From Escherichia phage ECO95 1-6-1, in the sequence record OR845257: 58,949 nucleotides of DNA; one strand, given 5' to 3'. The notes beneath the pieces were generated by a model. The model had not been told where the DNA came from. It made no database searches and saw only the letters and a program-made list of their open reading frames with translations. Of the stretch, positions 19,026-20,068 are shown in pieces. The number at the start of each line of letters is the position of its first letter. Position 1 is the stretch's first letter. Both the position numbers and the translations under genes were made by a program.

Positions 19026-19054
19026 TTGACATACGCGACATGTGTAATTAATAT
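19026..19054 (+). promoter_or_regulatory. sigma70-type promoter TTGACA-tacgcgacatgtgtaat-TAATAT
   Basis: between the Dam gene stop (19016) and gene 19094. Confidence 0.6.
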
Positions 19055-19056
19055 TA

Positions 19057-19090
19057 CTCCCGAAGGTAAATCCACCAACGGGAGTTTTTT
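19057..19090 (+). terminator. hairpin + U-tract between promoter -10 and start codon; the stem contains the GGGAG Shine-Dalgarno
   Basis: CTCCCG-N16-CGGGAG followed by TTTTTT, ATG at 19094. Confidence 0.45.
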
Positions 19091-19093
19091 ATT

Positions 19094-20068
19094 ATGGTAG
19101 ACGTGAAGAAAGAACGCGGTCTGAGAAAGACCAGCAGCGAGAAGTTTGAAGAAGCCATCCTCAACGCGCTGAACATGGACAGTTTTGACTACGAGGACGA
19201 CGGCGATATGCGCGACCACGCAGTGAAGATTATCAATGACCTGCAATCCTCGCCGAAAAGCAAGGATCAGAACGACGCCGAGGATTTCCGCAAGGCCGTG
19301 CTGGCGCAGTTAGGGTTAGACCAAGCCGGATACGCCACGCCATTGATCATGAAGGAGCACGTTCTTGGCCTGATTCAGTCGCTGCTCGATACCGAACAGA
19401 AATACCTGAAACTGCCGAAAGGCAAGACAGACCCGACTGTCACGGTATTCCATCTGGAGCGGCCAGCGTTGAGCCAACCCACGGCGGAAATCTGCGAACA
19501 GGTCTTCGGATACATGCTGGATCGTCTGATTCAGTTCGAGCGCAAAAACCCGGGACTGGAATTGGGATGGATGCAGCCGGACTGGCCGAAGCAATGTTCC
19601 GACGCCATCCGCCGCTGTCTTGAAGAGAATCAGTACATCGACGCGATGAATTACATCATGTTCGCCTTCGCGCAGGGCTGGCCGCTTAACGAAGCCCTCG
19701 TCACGCCGGAAGCCGTTGCCCCGTCGTCCGCCCGGTCATGGCAGTACGAATTCCGGAACGTCAAAGACAGCAACGATTATTCCGAATTAGTCAAAGTGCT
19801 ACATGATGCGCTGACACAAGCCGCGTATGGTAAAGGGCGGGAGCGACATGCCAATGACCTGCCGTTCAGCCAGCAGCCTATGAACGCTATTTCCGACCTG
19901 ATCGGTAGCCCGCTCGGCTTGGTCTATCAGGTGTGCAAGAAGGTCGTAGAAGGCGTCAACCTGCCAACGCATGACCAAAGGGTTAGGGAGTTGCTCGGCG
20001 TGATCAATTATACTGCCGGGATTGTCATCTGGCTAAATCGCCACCAATCAAATCCACCGAAGGAATAA
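19094..20068 (+). CDS. hypothetical protein
   Basis: 324-aa ORF downstream of the promoter at 19026-19054. Confidence 0.6.
   Translation: MVDVKKERGLRKTSSEKFEEAILNALNMDSFDYEDDGDMRDHAVKIINDLQSSPKSKDQNDAEDFRKAVLAQLGLDQAGYATPLIMKEHVLGLIQSLLDTEQKYLKLPKGKTDPTVTVFHLERPALSQPTAEICEQVFGYMLDRLIQFERKNPGLELGWMQPDWPKQCSDAIRRCLEENQYIDAMNYIMFAFAQGWPLNEALVTPEAVAPSSARSWQYEFRNVKDSNDYSELVKVLHDALTQAAYGKGRERHANDLPFSQQPMNAISDLIGSPLGLVYQVCKKVVEGVNLPTHDQRVRELLGVINYTAGIVIWLNRHQSNPPKE

What the first reader, a model, noticed from the sequence alone, without database searches (positions are those of the whole stretch)
19026..19094. Compact promoter-hairpin cassettes: terminator-like hairpins directly after the -10, one sequestering the Shine-Dalgarno
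At 19057-19090 a CTCCCG...CGGGAG stem plus U6 lies between the -10 and the ATG at 19094, and the 3-prime arm contains the only SD (GGGAG). A similar hairpin plus U-tract follows the -10 at 21267-21298, and CCCUUCGGG hairpins follow the minus-strand promoters (9471-9479, 11872-11880). Because the predicted TSS falls inside the 5-prime arm, upstream read-through transcripts would terminate or be translationally masked while locally initiated transcripts would not.
Basis: inference. Interest (0 to 1): 0.55.

Follow-up and report, generated by a model that had tools for sequence, protein, structure and literature searches.

The report
Promoter with built-in terminator hairpin
In this Chi-like Salmonella phage, two early promoters are fused to a terminator hairpin that should stop incoming transcripts but spare their own; the design is conserved across the phage family, though the principle is already known from phage T4.

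Summary
The window is a Chi-like siphophage (Chivirus, Casjensviridae). The described features are at the stated coordinates.

- **Site A:** TTGACA-17-TAATAT (19026-19054) is followed 1 nt later by a hairpin at 19056-19085 (-14.8 kcal/mol, z -4.2), then U6 and ATG 19094. The only SD (GGGAG) lies in the 3' arm.
- **Site B:** TTGACA-18-TATATT, then hairpin 21267-21290 (-11 kcal/mol) plus U5.
- **Conservation:** 21 such cassettes in 11 related genomes (at least six genera) start 0-1 nt after the -10. In a 14-sequence alignment of distinct cassettes the stem pairs in all 98 cells, with three compensatory pairs.
- **Start site:** the expected start (a G 7-8 nt after the -10) is the last base of the 5' arm, so local transcripts cannot fold it. 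SD accessibility rises from about 0 to 0.3-0.96.
- **Minus-strand CCCUUCGGG hairpins:** real, but they have no U-tract, are no more stable than shuffles, and sit at the 5' end of the transcript. They are not terminators.

Best reading: a composite promoter/intrinsic-terminator cassette with transcript-specific SD masking. It combines two T4 principles (PeSL motifs; gene e-type masking) but is not a PeSL member. No TSS or 3'-end data exist. New variant of a known kind; moderate interest.

The parts
19026..19054 (+). Site A promoter: -35 TTGACA (19026-31), 17-bp conserved spacer, -10 TAATAT (19049-54)
   Evidence: One of six promoters sharing an 18-nt -35/spacer motif (6 matches, 0 expected; the pattern was derived from these same sites).
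19056..19085 (+). Site A hairpin: 7-bp stem ACUCCCG/CGGGAGU plus inner GGU/ACC helix. The 3' arm holds the only SD, GGGAG (19080-84).
   Evidence: -14.8 kcal/mol, z -4.16. Covariation. The homologous site is annotated 'terminator' overlapping the RBS in phage Siskin.
19085..19093 (+). U-tract TTTTTTATT, which also serves as the SD-to-ATG spacer; ATG at 19094
   Evidence: TTTTTTATTATG is conserved in Chivirus, Enc34, PSTCR9 and Klebsiella phage Soft.
19061..19063 (+). Predicted TSS of site A (7-9 nt after the -10; G19062 preceded by a pyrimidine), at the end of the 5' arm
   Evidence: Inference from sigma-70 promoter geometry. One search shows RNAs starting here fold to only -1.9 to -2.8 kcal/mol.
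21237..21266 (+). Site B promoter: TTGACA, 18-bp spacer with dyad ACACG-TCG-CGTGT, -10 TATATT
   Evidence: (11 of 12 consensus matches).
21267..21299 (+). Site B hairpin AUCCCCG/CGGGGAU (21267-21290) plus UUUUUACUUU. Predicted TSS G21273 is the last base of the 5' arm. SD 21300-05 and ATG 21310 lie outside the hairpin.
   Evidence: (-11.0 kcal/mol, z -2.95).
15774..15806 (+). Conventional terminator (GCCCGC...GCGGGC UUUCUUUU) placed upstream of the sister promoter at 15824-15852. Shows the phage also uses the ordinary order.
   Evidence: -14.8 kcal/mol, z -4.4.
11852..11916 (-). Leftward promoter (TTGACG-18-TACATT, 11916-11887) followed by two leader stem-loops (C(UUCG)G hairpin 11882-11869; second hairpin 11868-11852). 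No U-tract.
   Evidence: z -0.5 to -1.6, not beyond chance.
9446..9515 (-). Leftward promoter (TTGACG-18-TATATT, 9515-9486) with the same CCCUUCGGG leader hairpin (9479-9470) and a second hairpin (9469-9446). No U-tract.
25241..25315 (-). Possible third cassette at the tail/lysis junction: weak -35 TTGTGT, 17 bp, TAATAT (25292-87), 1 nt, hairpin 25285-25263, U6, SD GAGGAAG, ATG 25241
   Evidence: conserved in six relatives; -11.8 kcal/mol, z -4.0. Annotated 'terminator' in Siskin. The promoter assignment is weak.

Best explanation
Each plus-strand cassette is a composite host-sigma-70 promoter and intrinsic (Rho-independent) terminator packed into a 77-80 nt intergenic gap. RNA polymerase arriving from the upstream co-directional genes (Dam methylase operon, probably from P15824) transcribes both arms of a G/C-rich 7-bp stem plus a U-tract and terminates. 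Polymerase that initiates at the cassette's own promoter starts at the G that closes the 5' arm (7-8 nt after the -10). Its RNA therefore lacks that arm, cannot form the terminator, and reads into the next gene.

At site A the 3' arm is also the Shine-Dalgarno sequence. Any transcript that escapes termination is therefore translationally masked, while the local transcript has an open SD. The net effect is that each early transcription unit depends only on its own promoter, which probably carries an operator.

Shown: the sequence anatomy, the thermodynamic stability, the conservation of position, and stem covariation across genera. Inferred: promoter activity, the exact TSS, termination efficiency, and the translational effect.
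For: - Identity: a Chi-like phage, 100% identical to vB_SenS_BPS1.
- Near-consensus promoters belonging to a six-member family.
- Hairpin stability beyond shuffles.
- 21 cassettes in 11 Casjensviridae genomes all start 0-1 nt after the -10 and are all followed by T4-7. They come from Chivirus, Enchivirus, Redjacvirus, Zhonglingvirus, Jacunavirus, Yonseivirus and Serratia phage Smarc5.
- Stems differ in sequence (ACUCCCG, AUCCCCG, ACCCCCG, CCCCUUG, GUCCCCGUAG, ACCCCUGA, AACCCUGUAU), but 100% of 98 cells pair. Three of 7 pairs carry double-sided changes in 9 cells; 0 of 500 shuffles reach the observed covariation score, percentage of paired cells or number of double-changed cells; slid registers give 32-60% pairing.
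- G-U wobbles point to RNA rather than a DNA site.
- RNAs starting at -10+7 or later fold to 0 to -2.8 kcal/mol.
- SD unpaired probability is about 0 in read-through RNA and 0.25-0.96 in local RNA.
- The hairpin motif never occurs away from a promoter.
- Independent annotators called the homologous sites 'terminator' overlapping the RBS in Siskin and Klebsiella phage Soft.
- A terminator in the middle of a co-directional gene cluster requires a restart promoter, and the 77-nt gap holds both.
Against: - No experimental TSS, 3'-end or reporter data for any Casjensviridae phage were found.
- Loops are long for canonical terminators (10-17 nt).
- One paper on Chi-like phages reported no Rho-independent terminators with ARNold (PMC9783114).
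- If the TSS were at -10+6 or closer, site A would retain a -6 to -9 kcal/mol hairpin.
- In Providencia site B and SAP012 site A, a residual -6 to -7 kcal/mol hairpin remains in the predicted local RNA.
- The arrangement leaves the promoter exposed to occlusion by incoming polymerase, which a conventional terminator-then-promoter order avoids.
Confidence: 0.68

Rival explanations
1. Leader attenuator. The cassette's own transcripts include the whole hairpin, so it attenuates or gates its own promoter. The models would be the frd terminator/ampC attenuator, or lambda PR'-tR' with Q, possibly relieved by a phage antiterminator bound at the conserved spacer dyad.
For: A conserved dyad between -35 and -10, where lambda Q binds, is present in all six promoters. 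The terminator is very close to the promoter.
Against: The 5' arm begins 0-1 nt after the -10 in all 21 cases. A sigma-70 holoenzyme using this -10 cannot start that close, and no alternative -10 with acceptable spacing lies upstream. The same dyad occurs in sister promoters that have no hairpin.
Confidence: 0.06
2. PeSL-like mobile regulatory cassette. The element is conserved mainly because it acts as a recombination module that shuffles adjacent genes. Its terminator and masking roles would be secondary.
For: The cassette is about 80% identical between the window and Klebsiella phage Soft, although both flanking genes are unrelated. Homology with Chi, Siskin, BP12C and phage 35 breaks at 19102-19113, just after the site A ATG. 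Sites A and B share 73-82% identity over about 75 nt.
Against: Only 1 of 5 indel or replacement sites in 15000-25300 among eight Chivirus genomes abuts a cassette; the rest are at ordinary gene junctions. There are only 2-3 hairpin cassettes per genome, against tens of PeSLs. 80% identity is not far above conserved coding genes between these genera (about 71-73%). This reading does not explain stem covariation or the fixed offset from the -10.
Confidence: 0.12
3. The hairpin is an RNA 3'-end stabiliser or processing site for the upstream message, or a DNA-level inverted-repeat operator downstream of the -10, rather than a terminator.
For: The loop motif GAAGG...CAAC is conserved across genera more than is usual for terminator loops. 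The inverted repeat overlaps the initially transcribed region, where repressors often bind.
Against: A U-tract of 4-7 follows every instance. Arm spacing varies from 4 to 17 nt, and G-U pairs occur; both are incompatible with a dimeric DNA site. A 3' stabilising hairpin followed by a U-tract is in practice an intrinsic terminator.
Confidence: 0.06
4. Coincidence of compaction. A C-rich discriminator and a G-rich SD happen to be complementary, with no selected function for the pairing.
For: The hairpin-less sister promoter P12512 also has CUCC...GGAG complementarity (4 bp, not stable).
Against: Site B, Providencia site B and both SAP012 sites form the hairpin without involving the SD. There are compensatory changes in three pairs. 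Energy z-scores run from -2.7 to -4.7.
Confidence: 0.03

Closest known systems
PeSL (promoter-early stem-loop) composite promoter/terminator motifs of T4-type myoviruses (Arbiol et al. 2010, PMC2839356; Comeau et al. 2014, PMC4122927)
   Same: A strong sigma-70-type early promoter and a terminator stem-loop are fused in one intergenic motif of 100 bp or less, ending in the SD and ATG of the next gene. The stem-loop is read as a terminator/attenuator for upstream transcription, and local transcripts escape it. Copies within a genome are paralogous.
   Different: In PeSLs the stem-loop mostly lies between -35 and -10 or overlaps the -10. Here it lies immediately downstream of the -10 and spans the TSS. 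PeSLs occur in tens of copies in hyperplastic regions and are tied to ORFan indels and mini-circles. Here there are 2-3 copies, and only 1 of 5 indels is adjacent. The phage family is different (Casjensviridae siphoviruses), the sequence is unrelated, and the SD can sit in the 3' arm.
Transcript-specific RBS masking in T4 genes e, soc, 49 and I-TevI (reviewed in PMC3014915)
   Same: Long transcripts from upstream promoters fold a hairpin that sequesters the SD/AUG. A promoter lying in the DNA that encodes the 5' strand of that hairpin makes transcripts lacking the 5' arm, and these are translated. This is the logic proposed for site A.
   Different: T4 uses late (gp55) promoters and the switch is temporal (early versus late). 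Those hairpins are not described as terminators in that review. Here the promoter is sigma-70-type, the hairpin carries a U-tract, and the contrast is upstream versus local initiation within one gene cluster.
frd terminator / ampC attenuator overlap in E. coli (recalled from memory: Grundstrom and Jaurin 1982; not checked here)
   Same: One hairpin plus U-tract sits just downstream of a promoter and ends the upstream operon.
   Different: At ampC the local transcript contains the whole hairpin and is attenuated. Here the local transcript is predicted to lack the 5' arm.

Membership tests
Intrinsic (Rho-independent) terminator | G/C-rich stem-loop immediately followed by a U-rich tract on the transcribed strand | tested here: met
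   7-bp stems with 5-6 G-C pairs, -11 to -17 kcal/mol, followed by T4-7 in 21 of 21 cassettes.
Intrinsic (Rho-independent) terminator | Stem maintained by selection (compensatory changes) | tested here: met
   100% of cells paired, 3 pairs with double-sided changes; 0 of 500 shuffles reach the observed covariation score.
Intrinsic (Rho-independent) terminator | RNA 3' ends generated in the U-tract by RNAP alone | not testable with these tools
   Needs Term-seq or in vitro transcription. No such data were found in the literature.
Sigma-70 promoter | -35 TTGACA and -10 TATAAT-like hexamers at 16-18 bp spacing | tested here: met
   Site A matches 10 of 12 positions and site B 11 of 12, at 17-18 bp spacing. 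Conserved in all relatives.
Sigma-70 promoter | Mapped transcription start 6-9 nt downstream of the -10 | not testable with these tools
   Only predicted: G at -10+7 or +8 with a pyrimidine at -1.
PeSL | Early sigma-70 promoter plus stem-loop in one short intergenic motif ending in SD and ATG | tested here: met
PeSL | Many copies clustered in hyperplastic regions of T4-type genomes | tested here: not met
   Two (possibly three) hairpin cassettes and six family promoters per roughly 59-kb siphophage genome.
PeSL | Association with indels and modular gene shuffling | tested here: inconclusive
   One of five variable sites abuts a cassette. The cassette is conserved between unrelated flanks in Soft versus the window.
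T4 gene e-type transcript-specific RBS masking | SD/AUG paired in a hairpin in long transcripts | tested here: met
   Site A: SD unpaired probability 0.000-0.001 in read-through RNA. Not so at site B.
T4 gene e-type transcript-specific RBS masking | A promoter placed so that its TSS falls inside or after the 5' strand of the hairpin | tested here: inconclusive
   Met by prediction in all cassettes. The TSS has not been mapped.
Leader attenuator (ampC/frd type) | Local transcript contains the complete terminator hairpin | tested here: not met
   The 5' arm starts 0-1 nt after the -10, too close for a sigma-70 start. This rests on geometry, not on a mapped TSS.
Any curated RNA family (Rfam 15) | Covariance-model match | tested here: not met
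   No match at gathering score in the window, and none at E<=5 in 18950-21400.

The most novel reading that the evidence does not exclude
The cassette is a family-wide, four-in-one regulatory module of Casjensviridae. It would combine a dyad operator in the promoter spacer, a sigma-70 promoter, a terminator whose 5' arm is the promoter's discriminator and start region, and an SD used as the 3' arm. Together these would make each early transcription unit strictly dependent on its own operator-controlled promoter, giving transcriptional insulation plus a translational fail-safe. The module would also relocate between unrelated gene contexts across genera. A third copy may gate the lysis genes at 25241-25315.
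Probability: 0.3. Interest if true: 0.55.

Novelty: new variant of a known kind. Interest (0 to 1): 0.4.

Why it matters
If confirmed, this would be a clean natural example of a promoter and terminator sharing the same roughly 60 bp, with the start site placed so that the terminator, and at site A the RBS mask, acts only on foreign transcripts.

- It would explain how Chi-like phages partition a long co-directional early gene cluster into independently controlled units within 77-80 nt gaps.
- It would correct annotation practice. A published ARNold run found no terminators in a Chi-like phage, and other genome annotations mark a 'terminator' on top of an RBS without comment.
- It would offer a compact insulator part for synthetic biology.

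It does not open a new principle. T4 PeSLs and T4 gene e-type masking already established both halves.

Tried and rejected
- IMG/VR protein-anchored search gave only 5 loci, all known Chi-like phages.
- An IMG/VR pattern scan gave 16 loci, of which only the known Chi-like site B copies were real. Neither added diversity, so GenBank phage records were used instead.
- Rfam gave nothing.
- Pfam on ten neighbouring proteins identified only Dam and a DUF. The 'putative transcriptional regulator' label on the site A downstream gene in phage 37 got no Pfam support for the homologous window gene.
- The built-in terminator scan missed both hairpins because it caps loops at 8 nt. My own looser scan was swamped by long GC-rich folds, so I compared 15 hand-picked compact hairpins (13 distinct sites).
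- PeSL-style shuffling was tested and not supported as the main role.
- A DNA-operator reading of the inverted repeat was rejected on variable arm spacing and G-U pairs.
- The attenuator reading was rejected on promoter geometry.
- The Soft downstream gene is not homologous to either window gene.
- The more distant Casjensviridae examined (Proteus PM87, Aeromonas BUCT552, Providencia Kokobel1) lack the cassette.
- Literature searches found no TSS or terminator mapping for this family.

Full report
**What the window is.** Region 17000-23000 is 100% identical to Salmonella phage vB_SenS_BPS1 and 92-98% identical to dozens of Chi-like phages (Chivirus, Casjensviridae). The finding lies in the rightward early gene cluster. 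Genes at 5.7-12.1 kb run leftward and genes at 12.5-24.9 kb run rightward, from a divergent intergenic region.

**The observation.** Site A reads TTGACA (19026-31), a 17-bp spacer, TAATAT (19049-54), t, ACTCCCG, aaGGTaaatccACCaa, CGGGAGT, TTTTTATT, ATG (19094). The RNA hairpin is -14.8 kcal/mol, z -4.16, and no shuffle of 200 folds as well. GGGAG in the 3' arm is the only SD. Site B reads TTGACA (21237-42), an 18-bp spacer, TATATT (21261-66), ATCCCCG, aaggcaacaa, CGGGGAT, TTTTACTTT, AGGGGG, caac, ATG (21310). Its hairpin is -11.0 kcal/mol, z -2.95.

The two minus-strand hairpins (9471-9479, 11872-11880) are also where stated. They are short C(UUCG)G stems with no U-tract, each followed by a second hairpin. 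Their leaders are not more stable than shuffles (z -0.5 to -1.6). They begin at about the predicted +1. They are therefore leader stem-loops at the 5' end of the transcript, and a different class from the terminators.

**A promoter family.** Six promoters in the window share an 18-nt -35/spacer motif, TTGACryACGysrCrTrT (6 matches, 0 expected; the pattern was derived from these sites). On the plus strand they are at 12512, 15824, 19026 and 21237. On the minus strand they are at 11916 and 9515. The motif is an imperfect dyad (ACAyACG-N3-CGTrTGT) that overlaps the -35. Only sites A and B carry a hairpin plus U-tract. P12512 is the first rightward promoter and has no co-directional genes upstream. 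P15824 has a conventional terminator just upstream, at 15774-15806 (-14.8 kcal/mol, z -4.4). So every rightward promoter that has genes upstream is paired with a terminator. That terminator lies either before the promoter, in a 189-nt gap, or fused to it, in 77- and 80-nt gaps.

**Comparative evidence.** I pulled the early regions of phages from other genera:
- Chi and Siskin (Chivirus)
- Serratia phage Smarc5
- Enc34 (Enchivirus)
- PSTCR9 and PibeRecoleta (Redjacvirus)
- Klebsiella phage Soft (Yonseivirus)
- Cronobacter phage JC01 (Jacunavirus)
- SAP012 (Zhonglingvirus)
- Proteus PM87, Aeromonas BUCT552 and Providencia Kokobel1

The same promoter family is present in all of them. In 11 genomes I found 21 cassettes in which a hairpin of -7 to -17 kcal/mol starts 0 or 1 nt after the -10 and is followed by T4-7. 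They sit at two syntenic positions: after the Dam methylase gene, and about 2 kb further on, after an exonuclease gene in some genera.

The stems differ between cassettes: ACUCCCG, AUCCCCG, ACCCCCG, CCCCUUG, GUCCCCGUAG, ACCCCUGA and AACCCUGUAU. The Providencia site B and SAP012 hairpins have loops unrelated to the others, yet they keep the same offset from the -10.

In a 14-sequence alignment the 7-bp stem forms standard pairs in 98 of 98 cells. Three pairs show double-sided changes in 9 cells. None of 500 shuffles reaches the observed covariation score, and slid registers give only 32-60% pairing. G-U pairs and arm spacings of 4-17 nt argue for an RNA structure, not a protein-binding DNA dyad.

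The hairpin motif never occurs away from a promoter. Proteus PM87, Aeromonas BUCT552 and Kokobel1 lack the cassette. Independent annotators marked the homologous sites as 'terminator' overlapping the RBS in Siskin and Soft.

**The start site.** In sigma-70 promoters transcription starts 6-9 nt after the -10, most often at 7, preferring a purine preceded by a pyrimidine. This is established knowledge that I am recalling, not something tested here. In every cassette the only such position is the G that closes the 5' arm, at -10+7 or -10+8. That column is invariant in the alignment.
- Site A: RNAs beginning at -10+7 or later fold to -2.8 kcal/mol or weaker, against -14.5 for the full hairpin.
- Site B: RNAs beginning at -10+6 or later fold to 0, against -10.9.
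- SD at site A: unpaired probability is 0.000-0.001 in read-through RNA. It is 0.25-0.96 in RNA starting at 19061-19063.
- Sensitivity: a start at -10+6 or closer would leave a partial hairpin at site A. Providencia site B and SAP012 site A keep a residual -6 to -7 kcal/mol hairpin, not adjacent to the U-tract.

**Most likely mechanism.** The cassette is a composite promoter and intrinsic terminator. Incoming polymerase transcribes both arms and terminates. Polymerase that starts locally begins inside the stem and is immune. At site A, and in Soft, JC01, Enc34, Redjacvirus and Smarc5, the 3' arm doubles as the SD, so escaped read-through transcripts are also translationally silent. SD masking is not universal: site B and both SAP012 sites have their SD downstream of the U-tract.

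The anatomy, stability, positional conservation and covariation are shown. Promoter activity, the TSS, termination and the translational effect are inferred. I found no transcript mapping for any member of this family. One paper on Chi-like phages reported that ARNold found no Rho-independent terminators.

**Comparison with what is known.** Two T4 systems cover the logic.
- PeSLs are composite early-promoter/terminator motifs. Their stem-loop mostly lies between -35 and -10 or over the -10. They were shown to terminate and to promote, and they are linked to modular gene shuffling (PMC2839356 and PMC4122927).
- T4 genes e, soc, 49 and I-TevI have an RBS-sequestering hairpin in long transcripts. 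A late promoter placed in the DNA for the 5' strand makes transcripts that lack that strand and are translated (PMC3014915).

The Chi-family cassette works like a fusion of the two, but it is not a PeSL member. It belongs to a different phage family and has an unrelated sequence and a different geometry (downstream of the -10, spanning the TSS). It occurs in only 2-3 copies per genome.

I tested for a shuffling role. Homology to Chi, Siskin, BP12C and phage 35 does break at 19102-19113, right after the site A ATG. The cassette is also about 80% identical in Klebsiella phage Soft, where both flanking genes are unrelated. But only 1 of 5 variable sites in 15000-25300 among eight Chivirus genomes touches a cassette. 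And 80% identity is not far above conserved coding genes between these genera. A recombination role is therefore unproven.

**Verdict.** This is a new variant of a known kind, undescribed for Casjensviridae as far as the searchable literature shows. It is of moderate interest and directly testable by TSS and 3'-end mapping.

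Noticed in passing
window 25241-25315 (minus strand): Possible third cassette at the tail/lysis junction: weak -35 TTGTGT (inside the end of the tail gene), 17 bp, TAATAT, 1 nt, hairpin 25285-25263 (-11.8 kcal/mol, z -4.0), U6, SD and ATG of the holin-like gene. It is conserved in Chi, Siskin, Smarc5, Enc34, SAP012 and Providencia phages, and annotated 'terminator' in Siskin. The TTGTGT may be conserved only because it is coding sequence.
   Followed up: partly
window 9498-9515, 11899-11916, 12512-12529, 15824-15841, 19026-19043, 21237-21254: All six early promoters carry a conserved imperfect dyad overlapping the -35 and spacer (ACAyACG-N3-CGTrTGT). 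The Aeromonas relative has ACATGC-N5-GCATGT at the same place, so the half-site changes but the symmetry stays. This looks like the operator of a dimeric phage regulator, which I did not identify.
   Followed up: partly
window 12190-12480: Five direct repeats of about 27 nt (cttacttgaaaaagNtacccggttgaa) lie in the divergent intergenic region between the leftward and rightward early clusters. They could be iterons of a replication origin or regulator sites.
   Followed up: no
window 9446-9479 and 11852-11882 (minus strand); L008, L011, L015, L013, L032 leftward promoters: Leftward early promoters in most genera are followed, from about +4, by a G/C-rich leader hairpin (often GGGGC-N4-6-GCCCC) and then an A-rich motif (cACTTAAAAC / CTAAC). 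None has a U-tract. This may be a leader stabiliser or an RNA-protein site.
   Followed up: no
window 7121-7183: A degenerate, inverted copy of the promoter spacer (gCAACGcacgccgcgtatatcag on the plus strand) sits next to the terminator hairpin at 7164-7183, inside the leftward gene cluster. It looks like a decayed cassette remnant.
   Followed up: no
window 12541-12582 vs 19062-19084: The 'loop' of hairpin A (GAAGGUAAAUCCACCAAC-GGGAG) resembles the leader of the hairpin-less sister promoter P12512 (GAACGUAACAUUUAACGAACCAAC-UGGAG). This suggests the terminator evolved from an ordinary leader by extending discriminator-SD complementarity and adding a U-tract.
   Followed up: no
window 19103-19705: The 5' part of the gene downstream of site A is replaced in Chi, Siskin, BP12C, SPN19 and phage 35. 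The gene product ranges from 177 to 324 aa among Chivirus genomes. Its function is unknown and it has no Pfam hit.
   Followed up: partly
L014 11501-11545 (Proteus phage PM87): In this more distant relative, one early promoter has a GGGGGA...TCCCCC inverted repeat spanning the -10 itself, which is the typical PeSL geometry, with no clear U-tract.
   Followed up: no
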